Positions 17,371 to 55,500 of a DNA stretch of 64,000 bases are shown here, one piece after another. The notes under the pieces were generated by a model. That model was not told where the DNA came from, ran no database searches, and was given only the letters and a program-made list of their open reading frames with translations. Position numbers and translations under genes: made by a program. The first letter of the stretch is position 1. Every line of letters begins with the position of its first letter. Location: the NCBI RefSeq assembly GCF_009914755.1, contig NC_060931.1. One strand, 5' to 3'. The stretch is from the human T2T-CHM13v2.0 reference genome, Homo sapiens.

Positions 17371-20042
17371 TACTCCATGCCGTTTGCTTTATAACATTTC
17401 TTCCACCCTCACCTCTTTGCCTTCTGTGCTTAGAGTTTCTTTCTTGTTTCAAATGGTTGAATATCAATGTTTCTGTTCTTTCTGACTCTTTCCATCTTTT
17501 TCTTCTATTCTATTAGCAAAAGAAAAGTTACCACAAGGGATGGGAACAAGAAAGATAACATTGTGTGCCAAATTGTTTTCCTGCTCTGTTTTTACTCTGT
17601 GGGCTCATCTGGATGTCAGTTTTGTTGTTGAACTCATAGGGTTAATTACCTTCCCCTGTCCCTCTTATCTCTTTAAAATCTCCTGAAATCTTTCCATTCT
17701 TGGAAAATGCACACACACACATACACGCACTCACTCTTACTCACATACATGTCCTTAGATGTCATGTCCATGGGCCCCAGGTTAAGTGAGATGCTTCACA
17801 AGTACAGCGGCTGCCACATTGGTCCCTGAATCCTCAATGCCAGCACAGGGCCAGGCAGACAGTAGGTGAATGTGGAATGAATATGTGAATTAATCAGGAG
17901 GGCCAGTGGGGGTCCATTTATCTTTAAGATCATGTGTTGTGTTACTTGGTCAGCAACATGTTTAGGTGGAAAAAGTTAATCTGCTTCAGGTTTCTTGAAA
18001 CATCCAGGAATACTTTCCCTCAGTCTCTTTTAAAAATGTTTGTTATTATTCACATAAATTCATCCTGCTTCTTTTAATAATTCAGGCTTCTACCACCTAA
18101 GGTCAGTATGTACAGTTGCATAGGCTGTGCACTGTTTTTGTTCAGGGTGTCTGGCCAAAGAGAGGAGAGAGAGCTAAAATTCAAGCTTCTTTGCTGGGGC
18201 AGGGTAGGTCTGCCTTGAGGAGGAAGCACCTGCCTGCAGTGCTGTGCTTCCCCAGGGGGATGCTTGCTGTAATCTGCACAAAGAAGCAGCGTGGATTCGC
18301 CGTGAGCCGCCTACAGGTTACGTAAATCCCTGGGCTACCGTTCTCCAAACTCTAGGTCAAGTTGAGGAAGATGGACACATGCCACCTTTTCATTATGACT
18401 TGCTGCGTAGATCAGAATGGGAAAATATTCTGGAAAGAACATCAGCAACAGACACTAGATTTAAGTAGACTATTTCAATCTCCTTTGGTGCTTTCCTACC
18501 TGAGCACAGAGTGGGTGAGATGTGGATTTGTGTTGAGGACAGAGAGCCTGAGAGCAATGAAAAGGAAATCAGGAACAGAGGCTGAGCCAGCCACGGGTGG
18601 CCCCAGGGGACATCATCATGAACATGAAGCTTTCTGGAAGGCTAGAAGTCGCACTCAGTGGGTGTTTGGGTCTTTATTGCACATCTGTAGTTCCAACCCT
18701 TTTCCCTCCCAGGAACTCATGGTGTCCTGTAGTTCTTGTTTACTTTTTCCAAGTGAGAAATCATTCTGCCTTTCTGCCTGCTAACTCCTTTCCTGATGTG
18801 AAAGCTCTTTCCCCAATATCAGATTCTCGCTGGCCTTTGTCTTAAAGCAGCCACCATGGAGAACAGGTAGGAACTCGGCTCCCATTCACATGGCCCCTAG
18901 CCTCAAAGAAGTAAATTATATCTGTGGGAATCCCTGCTCAGGAGCCCTGCTGACCACACATCTCGCATCTCAGGGCTCTGTTGTGGAAAGGTCCCTCGCA
19001 GGCATGACCCACCAAGAATGTTGCCTTTGTTAATTACACCAGTTAACATTGTTAAATGTTTACCATGCCCCAGGCATTGAAATGGGCATTTTACCTTCAT
19101 TCTTTCATTTGTCACCACAACCCTCTCAGAAGTTACTTAGCATCAGTCTACCTCAGCTTTCTCTTTTATAAAAGAAGAAAACAACACCTGTATTGTGTGG
19201 CAAGATTGCTATGATAATAAGAACACCACATTAAAAATACCCAGCAGGGCACCTGGGGTGCACCCAGCTCTCAGCGAGCTGTAGGAACTTCTTTGCTATG
19301 ACTGGGGCCCTCTGTAAAGTCACATAAGAACAAAATGCAGACATCTGGGCTATATTCAAACAACAGCAAAAGATTGTTCAACATTGGAAGAGCTGGGTTT
19401 AGGTGATTTTTTGATATTTTCCTCTTGTGGCCAAATCATATTTGCTGGGTTAATTTTCAAAACTTAGAACAAATTGTCATCTAGTAACTTTTAATGATCT
19501 CAGCTTGAGTGTGTTTCCTGCTGTTAGTTCACTCGGAATGTTCTGGGCTGTGTATCAAATGCATTCTCATTGTGTGGCTGCCAGAGAGGAAAAATGCCCA
19601 TTGTCTTGGCTGTGGCTATTTTTATTTAAATTGCAGTCCAACTTTTAGAAAGTCTTAAGGGTCATAAATGTGAAATGGTGGACAAAGTGCTTTTGAAAAA
19701 AAATACATTGTTTTTATTTAAAACAAAAAGTAATGCATGCTCATAAGAGCAAATTTAGGAGACACATAGTATAAAAGAAAAAAAATTAGTTCCATATAGG
19801 CCTTTTTCTAAACACAACCACTATTAACTTTTTGTTGAGTTTTTTAATGCAGTTGTATAGACAGATATATAGATAGACAACCGATATACAAACAGATTAG
19901 ATATATATATATATGTGCATGGGTATATGCATATAAATGACAATATATCTCTGGGTAGCTAGTTAGTTATAAATTACTTGCTATGTATAACTGGGGATAT
20001 GCATATACGTGTGTTGTCAGTGTCATCTGTGTATATATGCTC

Positions 20043-29540: not shown

Positions 29541-31050
29541 TCTCTTACAGAATATTCACATTTTTAAAAGTGTGCCTTATATTTGGCAATAAAAAAAATT
29601 GCAGGTTTCTGCAAAGTTACTTTAGCTTTAAAACATTTCAATGACAATTCAACTTTGAGTTCACCTAATGTTAACTGTTAAAAAAATTATTCAAGGGTCA
29701 AACACACTTTAATTCAAATTACTATTATATAATTGTAGATTTAAATGAAGTTATAAGGAACAATACAGAGAGATCCCTAGTAGCTTTTACTTAGTTTCTC
29801 CCATACATAACATTTGCAAAACTATAACACAATATCACAGCCAGAATACTGACATTGACATAATCCACCAACCAGAGTTCCCCAGTTTTATTTGCACTCA
29901 TTTGTGTGTGTATGTGTTTAGTTCTACGCAATTCTATCACATGTATAAATTTGTGTGACTGCCACCACAGTCCAGATACAGAACAGCTCCATCACCACAA
30001 AGATCCCGCATTTTGCCATTTAACACCCACACTCATAATCCCTCTTCCCTCATTCAACCCTCATTCATGGCAACAACTAATATATTCTCCATTTCTAAAA
30101 CTGCCATTTTGAAAACATTATATAAATGCAATGCCCAAAGTGTGTAATCTTTTGAGATTGGCTCTTTTCGCTCAGTATAATTTCCTGGAGATTTACAGAA
30201 GTTGTATTCACTCCTCCTATTGCTGAGTGGCATTCTATGATGTGGATGTACTAGAGTTTGTTCAATTATTCACCCACTGAAGGACATCTAGATTGTATCC
30301 AGTTCTGGACTATTAAGAATAAAGATGCTATAAAGATTTGTACACAAGTTTTTATGTGAACATAAGTTTTTCTCACTCTGGAATAAATGCCCAAGGGTAC
30401 AATAGCTGGGTTATATGATAGTCAAATGTTCACTTTTATAAGCAAGTATCAAACTGTTTTCTAGGGTTTCTACACCAGTATACATTACCACTACTAATAA
30501 ATGAATGATCCAGTCTCTCTACATCCTCATCAGCATTTGGTGCTATCACTATTTTTTATTTTAATAATTCTAATGGATGTGCAGTGATATCCCATTGTGG
30601 TTTTAATTTGCATTTTTAATAATTAATGATGTTGAACACTTTTCACTTGCTGTCTGTGTATCCTCTTTGGTGAAATATCTCTTTGTGTATTTTGCCCATT
30701 TTCTAATTGAATAGTTTGGGGTTTTTTACTGTTGAGTTTTGAGATTTTTAACATATTCTAGATACTAGTCCTACATTGAACACATGATTTGTGAATATTT
30801 TTCCCAGTCTGTATCTTGTATCTTTATCCTCTTTTTATCAGCTTCTGCAGAGCAAAAGTTTTAGGTTTTAATGAGGTCCAAAATATAAATTTTCACTTTC
30901 ATGAATTGTACTTTTTGTGACAACTCTAAGAATTCTGCCTAGCTGTGAACCCTGAAGATTTGTTCCTATTTTTTCATAAAAAGTATCCTAATTTTATGTT
31001 TTAAAGCTAAGTACATGATCCAATTTGAGGGTTTTTAAAAATAAATTATG

Positions 31051-31419
<369 letters not shown>

Positions 31420-31929
31420 TCAAGAACCACTTCTTGAAAAGTCCCTTCCTCATTGAGTTGGTTTTGCACCTTTGTCAAAAATCTGTTGAGCACATTTGTG
31501 TGGGTTTATTTTTGTATCCTTAATTCTGTCCAAGTAAACTGTGTGTCTGTTCCTCCACCACCATAAAACTATCTTGAAAAACCAACATCTCCTATGATGA
31601 TTGCAGACTTTTCAGTTTTACCATCTAAGTCTGAGTCTTGGCTCTCTATGTGTCAGTGCCATGTGGTTAGGTGCATAAAGTTCATTACTGTAATATTGTA
31701 ATATTTTCCTATGAAATTTCATTAACTATAAAATGTGCTTCTTTGATCCTATCAATACACTGGATATTAGTATTGCTACCCTAGGTTTCTTTTGTTTAAT
31801 ATTTGTCTGGATTGCCTGTTCCCATAAATTGACTTTTAATCACTTAGCGTTGTTCTAAGATTGATTTAAAATGTAGAATAAAAGGGAAGGTTATGGGAGG
31901 GTGGAACGTCTAATGTAAACCCAGCCCAG

Positions 31930-32008
31930 TGATTACATTAGCTGGGCGCTGATTAGGTTAGGATGTTGCCCAGGTATAAAGCCAGGATCTTCGGGACCTG
32001 GCTTCATT
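31930..32008 (+). promoter_or_regulatory. Candidate core promoter: two DUX4-consensus motifs, TATA box and Inr
   Basis: TGATTACATTA at 31930-31940 and TGATTAGGTTA at 31950-31960 (reverse complements TAATGTAATCA and TAACCTAATCA fit TAAYBBAATCA). TATAAA at 31975-31980. TTCATT Inr with its A at 32006, placing the TATA at -31. Confidence 0.7.
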
Positions 32009-32089
32009 TGGAGTTCAGCTACCAAAAGGAAACCTTCCTCTGGGTCCTGGAGTATTTGGCCTGAAATTGGGAATTTGGGAATTGCTGCT

Positions 32090-32700
32090 CTAGAGCGCTC
32101 CCTGCGGAGCTCGGCCGCCCGCCTCTCCCCCAGGTCTCTCCCGACGTCCCCACGCGGGGCGCAACCGCGAGAGAGGAACGCAGGTCGCCCCGCCAGCGCC
32201 CAGTGCAGCGCCAGTTTCCGGGCCGGGGCTGCTCTCGGAGCCATGAGCTGCGGCCGCCCCCCTCCCGACGTGGATGGCATGATCACCCTCAAGGTGGACA
32301 ACCTGACCTACCGCACCTCTCCCGACTGCTTGAGGCGCGTGTTCGAGAAGTACGGGCGCGTGGGCGACGTGTACATCCCGCGGGAGCCCCACACCAAGGC
32401 GCCCCGGGGCTTCGCCTTCGTCCGGTTTCACGACCGGAGCGACGCGCAAGACGCCGAGGCCGCCATGGACTGGGCGGTGCTGGACGGACGCGAGCTGCGG
32501 GTGCAGATGGCGCGCTATGGCCGCCGGGACCTGCCTCGCAGCAGCCAGGAAGAGCCAAGCGGCAGGTCCTGGGGCGGCCGCTACGGACGGCGGAGCCGCA
32601 GCCCCAGGGAGCGACACCGCAGCCAATCCCGGGGTCCCAGCTACTCTAGGTCCCGCAGCAGATCTCACTATGGGGGGTCTCGCTATAGCCCGTCTCCCTA
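32090..32700. other. CpG-island-like GC/CpG-rich segment
   Basis: Very dense CG dinucleotides over the 5'UTR and RRM, against CpG-depleted flanks. Confidence 0.8.
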
Positions 32701-33124
32701 CAGGAGATCTCGCTACAGCCGATCTCCCTACAGACGATCTCATTACAGGGGATCTCGCTACGGCCGATCTCCCTACAGTCGATCTTACAGCTGGCATCAC
32801 TACAGCCGATCTCCCTACAGGGAATCTCACTACAGGGAATCTCGCTACAGGAGGTCTCCCCACATCCGGTCTTCCCGCAACAGGTCTCCCTACCGCCGCT
32901 CTCACTCGAAGTCTGGGTCTCGCTCTCGATCTCCATCAATCTCCAAATCCAGCTCTCCACGAAGATCCAAGTCCTCCTCCGTCTCCAGATCCTGCTCACG
33001 GTCCATGTCTAGATCTACGTCCGGGAGTCCTCCCCCCACATCCAAGAGGGAATCCAAGTCCAGGTCGCGATCCAAGAGTCCTCCCAAGTCTCCTGAAGGG
33101 GAAAAAGGACAAGTGCCCTCCTAG
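32243..33124 (+). CDS. Intronless SRSF8-like (SRSF2-derived) SR splicing factor, 293 aa, intact ORF; retrogene or processed pseudogene, possibly SRSF8CP or an orthologue
   Basis: Start in GAGCCATGA context. [21 protein letters not shown] (RNP2)...PRGFAFVRF (RNP1), an RS domain and C-terminal [15 protein letters not shown]8-type residues (C3, [25 protein letters not shown]), but not identical to human SRSF8 as recalled. Expression cannot be shown from sequence. Confidence 0.8.
32663..32899 (+). repeat. Coding 15-bp minisatellite (16 units, one of 12 bp) encoding S[RPH]Y[SRG]x pentapeptides
   Basis: Units such as TCTCGCTACAGCCGA, TCTCCCTACAGGAGA and TCTCACTACAGGGAA. Confidence 0.9.
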
Positions 33125-33389
33125 GAAAATGATCATCAGCTAACGCGTGATGGAGGACTTGGAAAAGGACTACATACTCAGTCCATGGAAGCAGAGTCAC
33201 TGGAAGAAGCGACTGCCTAATGAAACGGTTGGGTGACATTTGTCTACCTTTTTTACCAGTTTGAAGCGTTGCATCAGATGGCAAGATTCATTTTATGTGC
33301 CATTTTGTTGTTTTCAAATTTTCTTGTAATTTAGTGAGGTGAACGACTTTAGATTGGATATGGATATTTGACGGGAAAATTTATATTTG

Positions 33390-33694
33390 TCTTTTTTGTT
33401 TGTTTTTTATTTTTGAAATGTAGTCTAGCTCTGCTGCCCATGCTGGAGTGCAGCGGCGCCATCTGCATCTTTCACCTCCTGGGTTCAAGCAATTCTCAGG
33501 CCTCAGTCTCTGGAGTAGGTGGAATTACAGACGCCAGCCACCACGGAGGGCTAATTTTTGGATTTTTGGATTTTTGGTAGAGACGGGGTTTCGCCATGTT
33601 GGCCAGCCTACCCTCAAACTCCTGGGCTCAAGTGATCTGCTCACCTTGGCCTCCTAAAGTTCTGCGATTACAGGTGTGAGCCCCTTCGCCCAGC
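33390..33694 (-). mobile_element. Old (AluJ-like) Alu within the retrocopy 3'UTR
   Basis: Divergent antisense Alu (CCTGGGCTCAAGTGATC) interrupting SRSF2-like 3'UTR sequence. Confidence 0.85.
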
Positions 33695-34877
33695 GTGTAT
33701 TTGATTCTATAGTGCTGATATTTTTGGTTTGAAATGAACAGGTTGGTAACCTAATTTGTGGCCTCCTGTCTCTTAAGAAATGTGTGCAGCCATTACACAC
33801 AGCCCAACGCTGTCATGACATTGCCTCAAAACTGCCTTCATTCCTTAAAGTTAAAAACTTACAAAAGGTGGTATAAATGTATATGTGTAATATTATTACC
33901 TTTAAATCTAACTGGTAATATGACCCAAATTTGTATAAAGATTTTTCAGGTGAAAAGACCGGGTTTTGAGCAAACACAATTCTAATCTCTTCTGTGTTTT
34001 TGTGTACCAGGCCCGGCTGCATAGCAGTTGAGTGATGCTGGTTAGCTGTTAAGGTGGCCTGTTGCAGTGCAGAGTGCTGAGCTGTTTCCTGTTTTCTTCT
34101 GATTGCTCCTGAAAAAAGAAGCCCTGTCCTGAAGAACAAATGGCTTTTCAGTTTATTAAAATGCCTGTCAACTGCCCTTCCAGTCACCCAGGCCTGGAAG
34201 AGAAATAATAGAGCATGCAGTGAGCACATCTAGCTGATATGATAATCACACCTCTTCCCCCTCCCTATTCTGTTAAATGGCAAATCTGATCATGTCAACA
34301 TACATGAACTTAAAATATGGGGAATGTTATTGAAGAAATGGTTTGTAAGTGTAGGTACTTATAACATGGTGTATGTTTTTGATTATGAATATTTCTTACT
34401 ATAACCATGTTTCTATCATTGAATTAAAATGTTTTCTTGGTGTTACCTTTTCTCAAAATAAAACTAGAAATATTTTGTAGAAAAAAACTATCTTGACTAC
34501 TGTAGTTATATAGTAAGCCTTAGTAATGTATAAATTTATTTTTTCCTCTTTACTCTTCCTTATCAAGAATGTTTTAGCTATTTTAGGACCTGTGCCTTTC
34601 CACATACATTTTAGAATAATCTTATCTATGTTTACAAAAAAACTTTGCTAGGATATTGGCAGGAACTGCATTCAACTTATAGATTAATTTGAAGTGAATT
34701 GACCTTTATAATAAGTTGAGGTTTTGATTCATGAACATGGTATGTCTATTTATTATAGTTAGGTCTTCTTTGATTTATTTCTCTCTTTCTTCTTCTTCTA
34801 CTCCTCTCTCTTGCTGCCCCTCCTCCTCCTCCTCCTTCTCCTTCCCCTTCTCCTACTCCTTCATCTTCATCTTCTTC

Positions 34878-48309: not shown

Positions 48310-48674
48310 GATGGTATTGACTGACTGTGTCTCCCTCCTCAATTTCGTATGCGGAAATCCTAACCCCCAATATGATTGCATTAGGAGGTGAGGCTTTTGG
48401 GAGGTGATTAGGTCATTAGGATGGAGCCCGACTAATGGTATTAGCACCTTTATAAAAGGGGCCCCAGAAAGCCCTCTCACCTTCTTTCCACCACATAAGG
48501 ACACAGCCAGAAGATGGCAGTCTACAAAGTGGAAGAAAACCCTCACCAGAAACCGACCCTGCGGACTCCCTGATCTCGGATTTCCAGCCTCCAGAACTGT
48601 GAGAAACAAACATCTGTGGTTTATAAGCCACCCTGTCTAGATTACTTTATTACAACAGCTTGAACTGGTTGAGA
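48310..48674 (+). mobile_element. MLT1A0-like solo LTR inserted in a MIR
   Basis: GAAATCCTAACCCCCAAT.TGAT...GGGAGGTGATTAGGTCA...TTCCAGCCTCCAGAACTGTGAGAAA. Confidence 0.85.
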
Positions 48675-52533: not shown

Positions 52534-55500
52534 AAGAGCCTGACCTTTACCTGGGCCATGCAGGGACCCACAATGAGGCCCAAGATCTCCCCGGTAAAGA
52601 GCCTGATCTTTACGGGGGGGATCCTGGGCCTTGCTGTGTGTTCCTATTTTTAGTTTCGTTATGATGCCAGGCATCATAAAGTACATGAAATGGACATATC
52701 TTCATTGAAAGATTTGTAAAAATTTGGTTATTTTTTATTTTGGTCTTTTGGTTCTGTTTCACTTAAAATCCAATAAAAATGATACTAAAGTCTAGTTTGA
52801 TATTTTATGCTCCCCCAAGTGTTTTCCTTGATAGCTCATGGGAAGCATGTTCTGTGGTATGGCACACCGGCCGCTCCTGACACTCAGTGCTGGGGAGGGG
52901 CTGCTGTGTCGGGGGCTGCCTCATCCTCTCTTCTCCACCACCCCTGACACTTGCAGACACAGGGAAGTCACAGGCTCCCTGATTCCCCTGGGGTGTCACC
53001 GAGGCCCAGCATGGGTAACGTACGTGGATCTATAAGTCAAGTGGCAGATCGTGTTGTTTCTACTCTCAGTCCAGCACTTGTCTTCCCTCTCACATTTAAA
53101 CTGAGCATTTGATTTGAGAGGTTACACAATTTTAAAACTTATCTGAAGACATAGACAAAGTCTCATAAATATTTTCTCCTATTTTTAATTGGCAAATTAA
53201 AAGTTTAGATTTTCTTTTTAGTTCTATGACTGCCATGGACGAAAAGTGCCCTCACATCCTGAGAGAGTTAACTTGCCTTGCTGATCAGGAAACCACCTGC
53301 AGTGGGCTTGCGGCAGATGAGAAACTGGCTTTGATCCCCACAGAGGGCTGCCTTACTACATGCAAATGTTGGATGTTGGCAGGATACTGGGCTTGGAGCA
53401 TGGGCAGGATCTTGGAACCCTAACTCTGAGATCTGTGGAGCCCCTAACTTCCTGACTCCATACTCAGTGATCTAACAGCCTGACCTGGGCAGCTTTGGGG
53501 AAAGTACTAGAGGACTTCACGCTCTGAAGAATAAGGTAAGCATGCAATGTCCTTTCTTCTGCCTGAGGAATGAATATTGCCAGATGTGACGGATTCACCC
53601 AAAGGCAGCTTCTTCAACTAGTCTTCTTGGAAAAAGAAAGATATGACTGTAGGTGAGCTATTTCTTCAATTAAGACTTAAAAAAATAAACAGTCTGAATT
53701 AGTGCATTTTAATGGAAACTGGTAGATTCTATTATTTGGGCAGAGTGATAATTGGCATCATATTGTAGGAAAGTAAAAAGGCATCACTCAAGTTCATTTT
53801 CAAACATGAAAAACCAGGTTAATTTGTCAACGGCATAATGCTTAGCCACTTAGAGATTCAGATTGCAGCTCCTGCATTTTATGGTCATTTTACTTTAATT
53901 AAAAACTGAATATGAGAGGATAGAACAATTTTCCTTGGATTTTTTCCTATCTGGTGTTAGCTTCCCAATCACTGGCTCTGTGCTAATGTGGCTGATTCCA
54001 GGCCTGTTGACCACCAATGCACCTCTGATATCTCTCCTCATCTGTAAAGTGGACATTCTATTAGAACCTACTTCACAAGGGTGCTCTAAAAATTAAATTG
54101 AAGAACTACATGATGAACATTTGCTGAGGGCTTGCACACCATAAGCAGTTGCCAAATTTCAGTCCTCATTCTCTCCTCTCTACACTCCTGGCACTTAAAG
54201 ACACAGGGAAGTCAGAGGCTCTCTGGTTCTCCTGGGGAGTCACCAAGGCCCAGCGTGGGTGAAGGACTTGCTAACAGCCACCTGAAGCCCACACTTTATC
54301 TCCTATGCTCTGTGATCAGGCCTCTTGCAATGATATTACAGCTGCTTTGTATGCCCTCCCCCACACACACACAAAAAATTGTTTGAGAAAAGACAGAGGC
54401 AACTTTGTATGACTCTAATCTTTGCTCCACTTAAAAATCCCAGCTAGTCTCTGTGTGTTAAGATAAACTCTCCTGGAAGGCGTCTGAAGGAAAAGCAAAT
54501 ATTTTGACCATTAAAAGAACCTCTAAATAACAAATGTCAAAGACAGGGCATGTGTTAGGCAACTTCACTTATCTCAGGGTTTGCAGGCTACTTTGCTTCA
54601 CTTTTTCAGTCTGTTTGTAAGTGATTATATTATAGGAATCTTTGACAATAAGATTTGGTCAGCTAAGAGGCAATAATAAGATGCATATGAAAGTCTCCCT
54701 TAAATAGAATTGATGTCTGGCTAAAATTAACTGCAATGTTTTAAATGTGTCTTCTGTTGGAACCTTTATACAGGGTAGGTTGTGTAAAGGAAAGGGCAGT
54801 TTAGTGTGGGAGAAGCCTATTTTAAGGACAATATTCTGCAGGTAATTTGAGATAGTCCTGAGCATGTTTACCATCTTCATCACTCAGGTCTATATTTTCA
54901 GAGGGTTTTGGCTGCCTCGTATAAACAGCTATTGAAATTTTAAATGAATATTTATAGAATTCAGCTTAATTGCCTACTTAGAATGATAGAATTTAGTCAT
55001 TCCACAAAGATAATGAGGGTTTAATGTACTGCAGGAATTGACCACATTAATTCATTCAAGCCATTCTCTGAACACTTCCTCGCTCCTGCTATGTGCCAGG
55101 CATTCCTCTATGAATTGGAAGATGCCCAACAGAATAATCTATGTCCCTGATACCTGAATCTAATTTTAATATAAGCTGTAGCTAAGAGTTTTTAAATGTG
55201 TACTATGTGTGAGGCACTGTGCTAATTTATTTCTCAACACATCCCTGTGAAGTTGATGTATATGTTTTTCTGTATTACAGATAAGGAAACTGAGTCACAA
55301 AGTGTTTGTCTCCTGGCCCTCATCACCCAGCTCATGATTGGGTTATACTTTTAGGCTGCCTTGAATGTCAACACCACAACAGGAAGTGCGGAGGTGAGCA
55401 CTTCCATCTACACTTCTCATGTATTTCTTAGAAAACATAGATGCCAATTAACGTCATGTCATCTGTCCTAGATGAGTTACAGTACGTTGGTATGATTTCT

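What the first reader, a model, noticed from the sequence alone, without database searches (positions are those of the whole stretch)
31911..32245. Retrocopy carries its own DUX4-type promoter (paired DUX4 motifs, TATA at -31, Inr): candidate ZGA/FSHD-inducible SR splicing-factor retrogene
Seen: inside the TSD-bounded insertion are two matches to TAAYBBAATCA in the same orientation, exactly 20 bp apart (about two helical turns), at 31930-31940 and 31950-31960. There is also a degenerate inverted third site (TAATGTAAACC, 31911-31921), TATAAA at 31975, an Inr whose A is 31 nt after the TATA start, and no ATG between it and the Kozak-flanked ATG at 32243. Known: DUX4 binds TAAYBBAATCA, drives cleavage-stage transcription, and SRSF8 (SFRS2B) is among reported DUX4-induced genes. 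Inference: the donor transcript began upstream of this promoter, so the copy was not born promoterless. It could express an intact SR protein at embryonic genome activation, in 8-cell-like cells or in FSHD muscle.
Basis: partly seen in the sequence, partly recalled or inferred. Interest (0 to 1): 0.82.

Follow-up and report, generated by a model that had tools for sequence, protein, structure and literature searches.

The report
Retrocopied pseudogene carrying DUX4-type promoter
This chromosome 7 copy of a splicing-factor gene was made from an unusually long RNA, so it brought along a ready-made promoter with two binding sites for the embryonic activator DUX4; whether that promoter fires here is untested.

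Summary
SRSF8CP is a true retrocopy (window 31578-34483). It has 13-bp target-site duplications and ends at the donor's poly(A) site. It is 96.6% identical to the SRSF8BP locus on chr11, not to SRSF8 itself.

Its first ~500 bp are not derived from SRSF2. They are a paralogue of a promoter/first-exon module found upstream of KDM4E, KDM4F, SRSF8BP and SRSF8. The two DUX4 motifs, 20 bp apart, are kept in 4 of these 5 copies. TATAAA is also kept in 4 of 5.

The chr7 copy is the only SRSF8-type locus that has both sites, the TATA box, the Inr and an open 293-aa frame. SRSF8BP has lost site 1 and carries a stop codon. SRSF8 has lost the TATA box.

The claim that the copy was "born with a promoter" is therefore supported. 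DUX4 binding or induction at chr7 is only inferred, from the published DUX4 response of SRSF8 and KDM4E.

The case for a working protein is weak. dN/dS against the donor is 1.4, and G77W replaces a glycine that 118 of 120 relatives keep.

The mechanism (a parental promoter inherited through an upstream-initiated transcript) is already described, so this is a new member of a known kind. Interest is moderate.

The parts
31565..31577 (+). 5' target-site duplication AAAACTATCTTGA
   Evidence: It is identical to 34484-34496. It is preceded by CAT, giving bottom-strand TTTT/AT, close to the L1 endonuclease site (the consensus is recalled).
31578..34483 (+). Retrocopy body (SRSF8CP). RefSeq annotates only 31893-34483.
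   Evidence: 96.6% identity over 2914 aligned columns to chr11:95043957-95046854 (the SRSF8BP locus). Outside these limits the flanks share only Alu-type matches with the chr11 loci.
31585..32075 (+). KDM4E/KDM4F-type promoter plus first-exon module; not SRSF2-derived and not repeat-masked
   Evidence: about 79% identity to chr11:95055015-95055479 (1 kb upstream of KDM4F) and chr11:95025537-95025964 (upstream of KDM4E); no masked repeat overlaps it.
31911..31921 (+). Degenerate inverted DUX4-like site TAATGTAAACC (2 mismatches). Forms an 8-bp inverted repeat with site 1.
   Evidence: It is not conserved in the KDM4E/F copies (TAATCTGGACC), so it is probably not meaningful.
31930..31940 (-). 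DUX4 consensus site 1 (TAATGTAATCA)
   Evidence: conserved in 4 of 5 module copies. SRSF8BP has A>G at the position equal to 31940.
31950..31960 (-). DUX4 consensus site 2 (TAACCTAATCA)
   Evidence: all 5 of 5 module copies match the consensus. KDM4E/F read TAACCCAATCA.
31975..31980 (+). TATA box TATAAA
   Evidence: present in 4 of 5 copies. SRSF8 itself reads TACAAG.
32003..32008 (+). Initiator-like TTCATT, A at 32006, 31 nt after the TATA start: the inferred DUX4-driven start site
   Evidence: It is identical in the three SRSF8-type copies. KDM4F has TGCATT and KDM4E TTTATT. Use as a start site has not been tested.
32082..32242 (+). SRSF2-derived 5'UTR, the start of a CpG island running to about 32700
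   Evidence: homology to SRSF2 begins at 32082, equal to +83 of RefSeq SRSF2. CpG o/e 0.93 with 72 CpGs in 32082-32700.
32243..33124 (+). Open reading frame of 293 aa (RRM plus RS domain) including the stop codon
   Evidence: Pfam RRM_1 59.8 bits at residues 17-86; 46 RS/SR dipeptides in residues 96-293.
33376..33687 (-). Antisense Alu in the 3'UTR, shared with SRSF8BP and absent from SRSF8
   Evidence: masked 33376-33532 and 33547-33687; the SRSF8 alignment is interrupted at 33389-33704.
34457..34462 (+). AATAAA polyadenylation signal inherited from SRSF2; the copy ends about 21 nt later
   Evidence: The SRSF2 3' end aligns up to window 34460.
34484..34496 (+). 3' target-site duplication AAAACTATCTTGA. 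Its first As could instead be a remnant A-tail.

Best explanation
SHOWN. SRSF8CP is an L1-type retrocopy (31578-34483) of a long transcript from the SRSF8BP-lineage gene on 11q21. That transcript began at least 428 nt upstream of the promoter core. The cDNA therefore carried the whole core: two consensus DUX4 sites 20 bp apart, a TATA box 15 bp after site 2, an Inr 31 nt after the TATA start, and a 237-nt leader with no ATG.

The core is not SRSF2 sequence. It is a paralogue of the module upstream of KDM4E and KDM4F. The original SRSF2 retrocopy that founded the SRSF8 family landed about 70 nt downstream of the Inr of one such KDM4-type unit, at that unit's GTGAGT donor. The founding copy therefore captured a promoter, and the chr7 copy later inherited it.

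INFERRED. DUX4 is described as a pioneer activator, and module-bearing genes (SRSF8, KDM4E) respond to it. DUX4 most likely binds the chr7 pair of sites and starts transcription near 32006. This would happen in cleavage-stage embryos and in DUX4-misexpressing cells such as FSHD muscle and some cancers.

The RNA would encode a 293-aa SRSF8-like protein. The coding sequence looks neutrally evolving, so the most likely product is an inducible pseudogene transcript, possibly translated, without a selected protein function.
For: Retrocopy:
- 13-bp TSD.
- Ends at the donor's cleavage site about 21 nt after AATAAA.
- Lies on a different chromosome, with no non-repeat flank homology.

Donor:
- 96.6% identity to the SRSF8BP locus against 84-86% to SRSF8.
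- Shares the 3'UTR Alu with SRSF8BP.

Module paralogy:
- Window 31585-32057 matches the sequence upstream of KDM4F and KDM4E at about 79%.
- SRSF2 homology starts only at 32082.
- After the SRSF8BP poly(A) site, chr11 resumes homology with the KDM4E/F unit right after the module, and then with KDM4E/F coding sequence.

Conservation:
- Site 2 is kept in 5 of 5 copies, site 1 in 4 of 5, TATAAA in 4 of 5, with no indel between the sites.
- The core 31922-31990 is invariant in 59 of 69 columns, against 242 of 418 in the rest. The core limits were chosen after seeing the alignment.

Rarity:
- 8 genome-wide pairs have this exact spacing; 4 of them are this family.

On the chr7 lineage, only 2 substitutions fall in 31579-32081 and none in the motifs.

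Literature (passages only):
- SRSF8 bound by DUX4 in ChIP-seq and previously reported as up-regulated (PMC5409219).
- SRSF8 changed 3 h after induction (bioRxiv 10.1101/2021.05.04.442407).
- KDM4E is a DUX4 and 4-8-cell gene with a DUX4 motif in its promoter (bioRxiv 10.1101/2020.05.24.109710; PMC6341076).
- Motif TAAYBBAATCA and pioneer activity (PMC12376486).
Against: - No binding or expression data for the chr7 locus could be examined.
- RefSeq lists no promoter, CAGE cluster or enhancer at 31500-34500. The window's only listed non-repeat features are an antisense lncRNA intron, a NANOG hESC enhancer at 18550-19332 and a silencer at 54373-54573.
- RefSeq's SRSF8 5' end maps to window 31893, upstream of the DUX4 sites. 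The TATA/Inr start is therefore not the annotated one.
- SRSF8, the copy with published DUX4 response, lacks the TATA box. The TATA box may thus be dispensable, or the start site may differ.
- The copy is young (2.6% substitutions from its donor). Intact motifs need not reflect selection at chr7.
- Names SRSF8CP and SRSF8BP occur in only 1 paper of the searchable library, a TCGA expression list.
Confidence: 0.55

Rival explanations
1. Silent relic. The DUX4 sites, TATA box and Inr were carried along passively by a read-through transcript and are intact only because the copy is young. At chr7 the locus is not bound or transcribed to any meaningful degree.
For: - RefSeq calls it a pseudogene and lists no regulatory feature over it.
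- Substitution divergence from the donor is only 2.6%, and the chr7 branch has 19 substitutions in all, so 2 in the 500-bp upstream part is not a significant deficit.
- Coding evolution is compatible with neutrality.
- No paper in the searchable library discusses the locus.
Against: - DUX4 is described as a pioneer factor that opens chromatin at its targets (PMC12376486 passage).
- The same module accompanies DUX4-responsive genes.
- The CpG island has suffered 1 CpG transition on the chr7 branch against 8 on the SRSF8BP branch. This suggests it has stayed unmethylated in the germ line.
Confidence: 0.3
2. Functional hominid retrogene. SRSF8CP encodes a selected, translated SR splicing factor acting at embryonic genome activation.
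For: - Open 293-aa frame with an RRM (59.8 bits) and an RS domain (46 RS/SR dipeptides).
- ATG-free leader from the Inr, with a purine at -3.
- The donor SRSF8BP has decayed (stop codon; R47L, G82E and Q88R at near-invariant positions), while this copy has not acquired a stop.
- A gorilla protein model (P0001) shares the chr7-derived S106 and is open.
- SRSF8-assigned phosphopeptides rise within 2 h of DUX4 induction (PMC10655719 passage). That paper does not separate the paralogues.
Against: - CP versus BP dN/dS is 1.43 (21 N, 5 S).
- The chr7 branch has 7 N and 4 S, not different from neutral (binomial p=0.49).
- G77W hits a glycine kept in 118 of 120 homologues.
- The RRM score is 10 bits below SRSF8's.
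- A 15-nt insertion lies in the RS domain.
Confidence: 0.1
3. The copy is transcribed, but not through DUX4. The retained SRSF2-derived CpG island (32082-32700), or the upstream start equal to RefSeq's SRSF8 5' end (31893), drives low, broad or testis-type expression.
For: - CpG o/e is 0.93, with little CpG decay on this branch.
- RefSeq's SRSF8 mRNA begins upstream of the DUX4 sites, and 315 bp further upstream were also copied.
- CpG islands are described as a frequent source of retrocopy promoters (PMC4772013 passages).
- SRSF8CP appears in a tumour expression list (search listing only).
Against: - Transcripts from 31893 would carry three upstream ATGs, at 31893, 31913 and 31963.
- No CAGE cluster or promoter is annotated here.
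- This reading does not exclude DUX4 induction.
Confidence: 0.15
4. DNA-level (segmental) duplication rather than retroposition.
For: - The parent is intronless, so intron loss cannot be used as proof.
- The A-tail is at most 4 nt long.
Against: - The 3' end coincides with the donor's cleavage site after AATAAA.
- The 13-bp TSD starts with AAAA.
- The 5' end lies in a donor A-run, as expected for microhomology-mediated 5' joining.
- The copy lies on another chromosome.
Confidence: 0.03

Closest known systems
SRSF8BP locus (chr11:95043957-95046854), the immediate donor
   Same: 96.6% identity over the whole 2.9 kb. It has the same upstream module, the same 3'UTR Alu and the same poly(A) site.
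   Different: - SRSF8BP has lost DUX4 site 1 (A>G at the position equal to 31940).
- It carries an in-frame TGA and three changes at near-invariant RRM positions.
- It shows 8 CpG transitions against 1 in the chr7 copy.
- It sits inside the chr11 KDM4 cluster.
SRSF8 (SRp46/SFRS2B), an expressed retrogene of SRSF2 and a reported DUX4 target
   Same: Same architecture: KDM4-type module, then SRSF2-derived 5'UTR, ORF and 3'UTR. Both DUX4 sites are identical in sequence and spacing.
   Different: - 84-86% identity.
- SRSF8 reads TACAAG where the others have TATAAA.
- It has no 3'UTR Alu.
- Its protein is 282 aa with a different RS-repeat arrangement.
- dN/dS to the CP/BP clade is 0.45-0.54.
Promoter/first-exon module upstream of KDM4E and KDM4F (cleavage-stage DUX4 targets)
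   Same: About 79% identity over about 470 bp. Both DUX4 sites are 20 bp apart, TATAAA is present, and the following 45 nt are highly conserved.
   Different: In KDM4E/F the module ends in a GTGAGT donor and is followed by an intron and a KDM4 ORF. In the SRSF8 family that point is where the SRSF2 cDNA begins. RefSeq does not annotate this module as the KDM4E/F first exon, so that role is inferred.
Retrocopies that inherit a parental promoter because the source transcript started at an upstream promoter (Carelli et al. 2016, PMC4772013, figure legend; example hsa_retrop24247)
   Same: Same mechanism: parental sequence upstream of the expected start site lies inside the TSD-bounded copy.
   Different: Here the parent is itself a retrogene that gained its promoter by landing in a host gene. 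The chr7 copy is therefore a second-generation event. Activity at chr7 has not been shown.
DUX4-bound retroelement promoters (MaLR/HERVL LTRs; title of PMC3836709 seen in a reference list and a passage of PMC6341076)
   Same: DUX4 motif(s) immediately upstream of a start site that creates or drives a transcript.
   Different: This module is not repeat-masked and has only 5 genomic copies. It is a low-copy gene promoter, not an LTR family.

Membership tests
L1-mediated processed retrocopy | Target-site duplication flanking the insert | tested here: met
   AAAACTATCTTGA at 31565-31577 and 34484-34496.
L1-mediated processed retrocopy | 3' end at the parental poly(A) site, followed by an A-tail | tested here: met
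   The copy ends about 21 nt after AATAAA, exactly where donor homology stops. Only 0-4 non-templated As remain.
L1-mediated processed retrocopy | Loss of parental introns | not testable with these tools
   The donor locus is collinear and intronless over the copied span, so this criterion carries no information.
L1-mediated processed retrocopy | Insertion at a TTTT/AA-like endonuclease site | tested here: met
   The pre-insertion top strand reads CAT|AAAA, giving bottom-strand TTTT/AT. The consensus is recalled, not taken from a call.
Direct DUX4 target promoter | Match(es) to TAAYBBAATCA close to the start site | tested here: met
   Two exact matches at 31930-31940 and 31950-31960. The motif is confirmed in a passage of PMC12376486.
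Direct DUX4 target promoter | DUX4 occupancy at this locus (ChIP-seq or CUT&Tag) | not testable with these tools
   Sequencing reads were not available. Published binding refers to SRSF8.
Direct DUX4 target promoter | DUX4-dependent transcription starting downstream of the sites | not testable with these tools
   No expression data were available. The TATA box and Inr spacing are only consistent with this.
Protein-coding retrogene under selection | Open reading frame over the full parental length | tested here: met
   293 aa with no stop.
Protein-coding retrogene under selection | Purifying selection (dN/dS clearly below 1) | tested here: not met
   CP versus BP dN/dS is 1.43 (21 N, 5 S). The chr7 branch has 7 N and 4 S, p=0.49 against neutral. 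Counts are small.
Protein-coding retrogene under selection | Invariant family residues retained | tested here: not met
   G77W: G in 118 of 120 homologues. RRM_1 scores 59.8 bits against 69.9 for SRSF8.
SR protein (SRSF2/SRSF8 type) | N-terminal RRM plus C-terminal RS domain | tested here: met
   Pfam RRM_1 at residues 17-86. Residues 96-293 hold 46 RS/SR dipeptides and are 55% R+S.
Retrocopy with an inherited parental promoter | Parental sequence upstream of the start site lies inside the copy | tested here: met
   503 bp of non-SRSF2 parental upstream sequence (31578-32081) lie inside the TSDs.
Retrocopy with an inherited parental promoter | The retrocopy's own start site maps to that inherited promoter | not testable with these tools
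   No CAGE or RNA data were available for the locus. RefSeq annotates none.

The most novel reading that the evidence does not exclude
The KDM4E/KDM4F promoter is a portable DUX4-responsive cassette. It has wired new genes into the human cleavage-stage programme in two ways. First it captured an incoming SRSF2 cDNA, giving the SRSF8 family. Later it was itself retroposed to chr7.

The chr7 copy is now the best-preserved SRSF8-type unit: both DUX4 sites, TATA box, Inr, CpG island and open frame. On this reading it is a great-ape-specific, DUX4-driven and translated SR protein. It would contribute to splicing changes at genome activation and in FSHD, and its signal would so far have been credited to SRSF8 or discarded as pseudogene reads.
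Probability: 0.1. Interest if true: 0.65.

Novelty: new member of a known kind. Interest (0 to 1): 0.4.

Why it matters
If the chr7 copy responds to DUX4, it adds an unlisted, lineage-specific transcript, and possibly an SR protein variant, to the human genome-activation and FSHD programmes. It also becomes a possible confounder when SRSF8 reads or peptides are counted.

It would be a clear, datable example of a transcription-factor-responsive promoter spreading by retroposition. The link found here, that SRSF8 and KDM4E/KDM4F share one promoter module, explains why an SRSF2-derived retrogene is a DUX4 target. I found no paper making that link: only 1 paper holds both names, and it is an expression list.

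If the locus is silent, it is an ordinary young processed pseudogene with an unusually long 5' end.

Tried and rejected
Readings rejected:
- LTR-derived promoter. The module is not repeat-masked and has only 5 genomic copies.
- SRSF8 as the direct parent. Identity is 84-86%, against 96.6% for SRSF8BP, and SRSF8 lacks the 3'UTR Alu.
- The third 'inverted' DUX4 site as functional. It has 2 mismatches and is not conserved in the KDM4E/F copies.
- Segmental duplication. See the rival explanations.

Attempts with limited yield:
- Dating and orthology from protein models of other primates. A single shared derived residue links gorilla P0001 to the chr7 copy, and another links gibbon P0004 to SRSF8BP. 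This is too weak to place the event, and no primate genomes were available.
- The genome-wide search for motif pairs with a 0-30 nt gap was dominated by HSATII-like satellite arrays, and its listing was truncated. I reran it with a fixed gap.

Literature:
- Primary papers were not held: Geng 2012, Soret 1998, Hendrickson 2017, Whiddon 2017. What they show is cited only through other papers' passages.
- The part of PMC12519442 that names SRSF8CP lies beyond the held text.
- I did not ask for supplements. DUX4 target tables there may bear on whether this locus is already listed.
Full report
**Observation**

- TGATTACATTA (31930-31940) and TGATTAGGTTA (31950-31960) are exact minus-strand matches to TAAYBBAATCA, 20 bp apart start to start.
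- The 64-kb window holds 4 exact matches against 1.01 expected. Four of 100 shuffles reach 4 or more, so the window count alone is unremarkable. The pairing is what is rare.
- Across the whole reference, same-strand pairs with exactly a 9-nt gap number 8, against 2 for the reversed-pattern control. Four of the 8 are this sequence and its chr11 paralogues.
- With a 0-30 nt gap there are 195 pairs against 40 for the control. Most of the 100 listed (95 more were not shown) are satellite arrays of TGATTCCATTA.
- TATAAA is at 31975-31980. TTCATT has its A at 32006, 31 nt after the TATA start.
- No ATG lies in 32006-32242. The start codon at 32243 sits in GGAGCCATGA.
- The 'third site' (31911-31921) has two mismatches and is not kept in the KDM4E/F copies. 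I discount it.

**Anatomy of the insertion**

- The chr7 segment 31577-34483 aligns at 96.6% over 2914 columns to chr11:95043957-95046854, the SRSF8BP locus. It aligns at 84-86% to the SRSF8 locus.
- It shares with SRSF8BP an antisense Alu in the 3'UTR (masked at 33376-33687) that SRSF8 lacks.
- Homology stops on both sides at a 13-bp direct repeat, AAAACTATCTTGA (31565-31577 and 34484-34496).
- The 3' end falls where the donor is cleaved, about 21 nt after AATAAA (34457). At most four extra As follow.
- The 5' end falls in an A-run of the donor.
- Outside these limits chr7 shares only Alu-type matches with chr11.
- This is a retrocopy. RefSeq's pseudogene start (31893) under-calls it by 315 bp.
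- The donor RNA reached at least 428 nt upstream of the Inr. L1 copies are often 5'-truncated, so it may have started further upstream, for instance as read-through from the KDM4E side.

**What the upstream part is**

- SRSF2 homology begins only at 32082, which equals +83 of RefSeq SRSF2.
- Window 31585-32057 instead matches, at about 79%, two further chr11 segments in the same orientation as the genes. One lies 1 kb upstream of KDM4F (chr11:95055015-95055479). The other lies upstream of KDM4E (chr11:95025537-95025964).
- In those two copies the module ends in GTGAGT, a donor-like sequence. In the SRSF8-type copies the SRSF2 cDNA starts at that point.
- After the SRSF8BP poly(A) site, chr11 resumes homology with the sequence that follows the module in the KDM4E unit (L007 6851-7276 against L009 1991-2414). 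It then matches KDM4E/F coding sequence (L007 7518-8182 against L009 9004-9684 and L010 3868-4543).
- For SRSF8 itself, only about 300 bp of resumed homology were found.
- The founding SRSF2 retrocopy therefore landed inside a KDM4E/F-type unit about 70 nt downstream of its Inr and took over its promoter.
- The pair [KDM4 unit + SRSF8 unit] was then duplicated in tandem. The offsets are 29,515 and 29,643 bp.
- The module is not repeat-masked and has five copies in the genome.

**Conservation of the promoter core**

Across the five copies:
- Site 2 fits the consensus in 5 of 5.
- Site 1 fits in 4 of 5. SRSF8BP has A>G at the position equal to 31940.
- The 20-bp spacing has no indel.
- TATAAA is present in 4 of 5. 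SRSF8 reads TACAAG.
- The Inr is identical in the three SRSF8-type copies.
- Columns 31922-31990 are invariant in 59 of 69, against 242 of 418 elsewhere in the module (odds ratio 4.3, Fisher p=7e-6). I chose these limits after seeing the alignment, so the p-value is optimistic.

The chr7 copy is thus the only SRSF8-type locus that combines both sites, the TATA box, the Inr and an open frame.

**Coding part**

- The chr7 frame is open for 293 aa, with an RRM (Pfam RRM_1, 59.8 bits) and an RS domain (46 RS/SR dipeptides).
- SRSF8BP has an in-frame TGA. SRSF8 encodes 282 aa.
- Nei-Gojobori estimates: CP-BP dN/dS 1.43 (21 N, 5 S), CP-SRSF8 0.45, BP-SRSF8 0.54.
- With SRSF8 as outgroup, the chr7 branch has 7 N and 4 S, not different from neutral (p=0.49).
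- One of the seven, G77W, replaces a glycine present in 118 of 120 SRSF2-family hits. The RRM scores 10 bits below SRSF8's.
- The frame is intact, but nothing indicates selection for the protein.

**Age and methylation hints**

- CP and BP differ at 75 of 2889 aligned sites (2.6%).
- With SRSF8 as outgroup, 19 changes fall on the chr7 branch and 35 on the SRSF8BP branch (p=0.04).
- The difference comes largely from CpG transitions, 1 against 8.
- The CpG island 32082-32700 keeps o/e 0.93.
- By comparison with recalled ape divergences, I infer an origin roughly 8-15 million years ago. I also infer a germ-line-unmethylated island on chr7. Both are inferences.
- Protein models are compatible with this but weak. 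Gorilla P0001 shares the chr7-derived S106. Gibbon P0004 shares the SRSF8BP-derived L47.

**Literature (passages unless stated)**

- TAAYBBAATCA is the ChIP-seq motif, TAATCTAATCA is the optimum, and DUX4 acts as a pioneer through p300/CBP (PMC12376486).
- SRSF8 (written there SFRS8, aka SFRS2B) is listed among genes bound by DUX4 in ChIP-seq and previously found up-regulated (PMC5409219).
- SRSF8 is differentially expressed 3 h after induction (bioRxiv 10.1101/2021.05.04.442407).
- SRSF8 phosphopeptides rise within 2 h (PMC10655719).
- KDM4E is a DUX4 and 4-8-cell gene with a DUX4 motif in its promoter (bioRxiv 10.1101/2020.05.24.109710; PMC6341076).
- Inheritance of a downstream parental promoter through an upstream-initiated transcript is an established, minority route for retrocopy expression (PMC4772013).
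- SRSF8CP and SRSF8BP occur in 1 paper, an expression list. SRSF8 together with KDM4E occurs in the same single paper.
- Supplements were closed. DUX4 target tables there could already include the locus.

**Verdict**

The copy carries a KDM4E/F-type DUX4 promoter cassette inherited from the SRSF8BP lineage.

DUX4 inducibility at chr7 is a reasonable inference that could not be tested here; I put it at about 0.55. A selected protein function is unlikely, at about 0.1.

The mechanism is known, so this is a new member of a known kind. Interest is moderate, and the case is readily testable with public data.

Noticed in passing
chr11:95025537-95078274 (loci L007-L010): The 11q21 cluster consists of four KDM4E/F-type units in tandem (KDM4E, SRSF8BP, KDM4F, SRSF8), each headed by the same DUX4-site/TATA module. 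An unannotated KDM4-like remnant follows SRSF8BP at about chr11:95047518-95049123.
   Followed up: partly
L008 (chr11 SRSF8), position equal to window 31975-31980: SRSF8, the copy with published DUX4 response, reads TACAAG instead of TATAAA. RefSeq places its 5' end 37 bp upstream of DUX4 site 1, so its real DUX4-driven start site is an open point.
   Followed up: no
window 32082-32700: The SRSF2-derived CpG island is retained (o/e 0.93, 72 CpGs). It has 1 CpG transition on the chr7 branch against 8 on the SRSF8BP branch, which suggests germ-line hypomethylation of the chr7 copy.
   Followed up: partly
genome-wide; for example chr1:126.8-142.2 Mb and chr7:58.3-59.9 Mb: Most same-strand DUX4-motif pairs within 30 nt are satellite arrays of TGATTCCATTA, with 195 hits against 40 for the control. 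This fits the reported DUX4 activation of HSATII (passage of PMC12376486; title of bioRxiv 10.1101/734541 seen in a listing).
   Followed up: no
chr5:77490312-77490381; chr11:62798210-62798240; chr15:25641973-25642003: These are the only other exact DUX4-motif pairs with 20-bp phasing. One is a short tandem array between CRHBP and AGGF1. The other two lie in introns of STX5 and OCA2.
   Followed up: no
protein P0002 (Macaca fascicularis, 384 aa): A macaque gene model translates straight through the promoter module. Its residues SDYISW...GIKPG are compatible with both DUX4 sites and TATAAA being present in an Old World monkey. Its RS domain is of the CP/BP type.
   Followed up: partly
window 32815-32829: A 15-nt in-frame insertion (one extra SHYRE-like repeat) in the RS domain relative to SRSF8BP. 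Together with a 5-bp indel at 31716 it is a convenient paralogue-specific marker.
   Followed up: no
window 31911-31940: An 8-bp inverted repeat, TAATGTAA ... TTACATTA, with a 14-nt spacer, made of the degenerate site and DUX4 site 1. Only the right arm is conserved in the KDM4E/F copies.
   Followed up: partly
window 48373-48383 and 55335-55345: Two further single exact DUX4-consensus matches on the minus strand, with no partner site. They were not examined.
   Followed up: no
window 31023-31376: An Alu with an (AAAT)n tail lies 190 bp upstream of the insertion site. The retrocopy lies antisense in an intron of lncRNA LOC105375268. RefSeq lists a NANOG hESC enhancer at 18550-19332.
   Followed up: no
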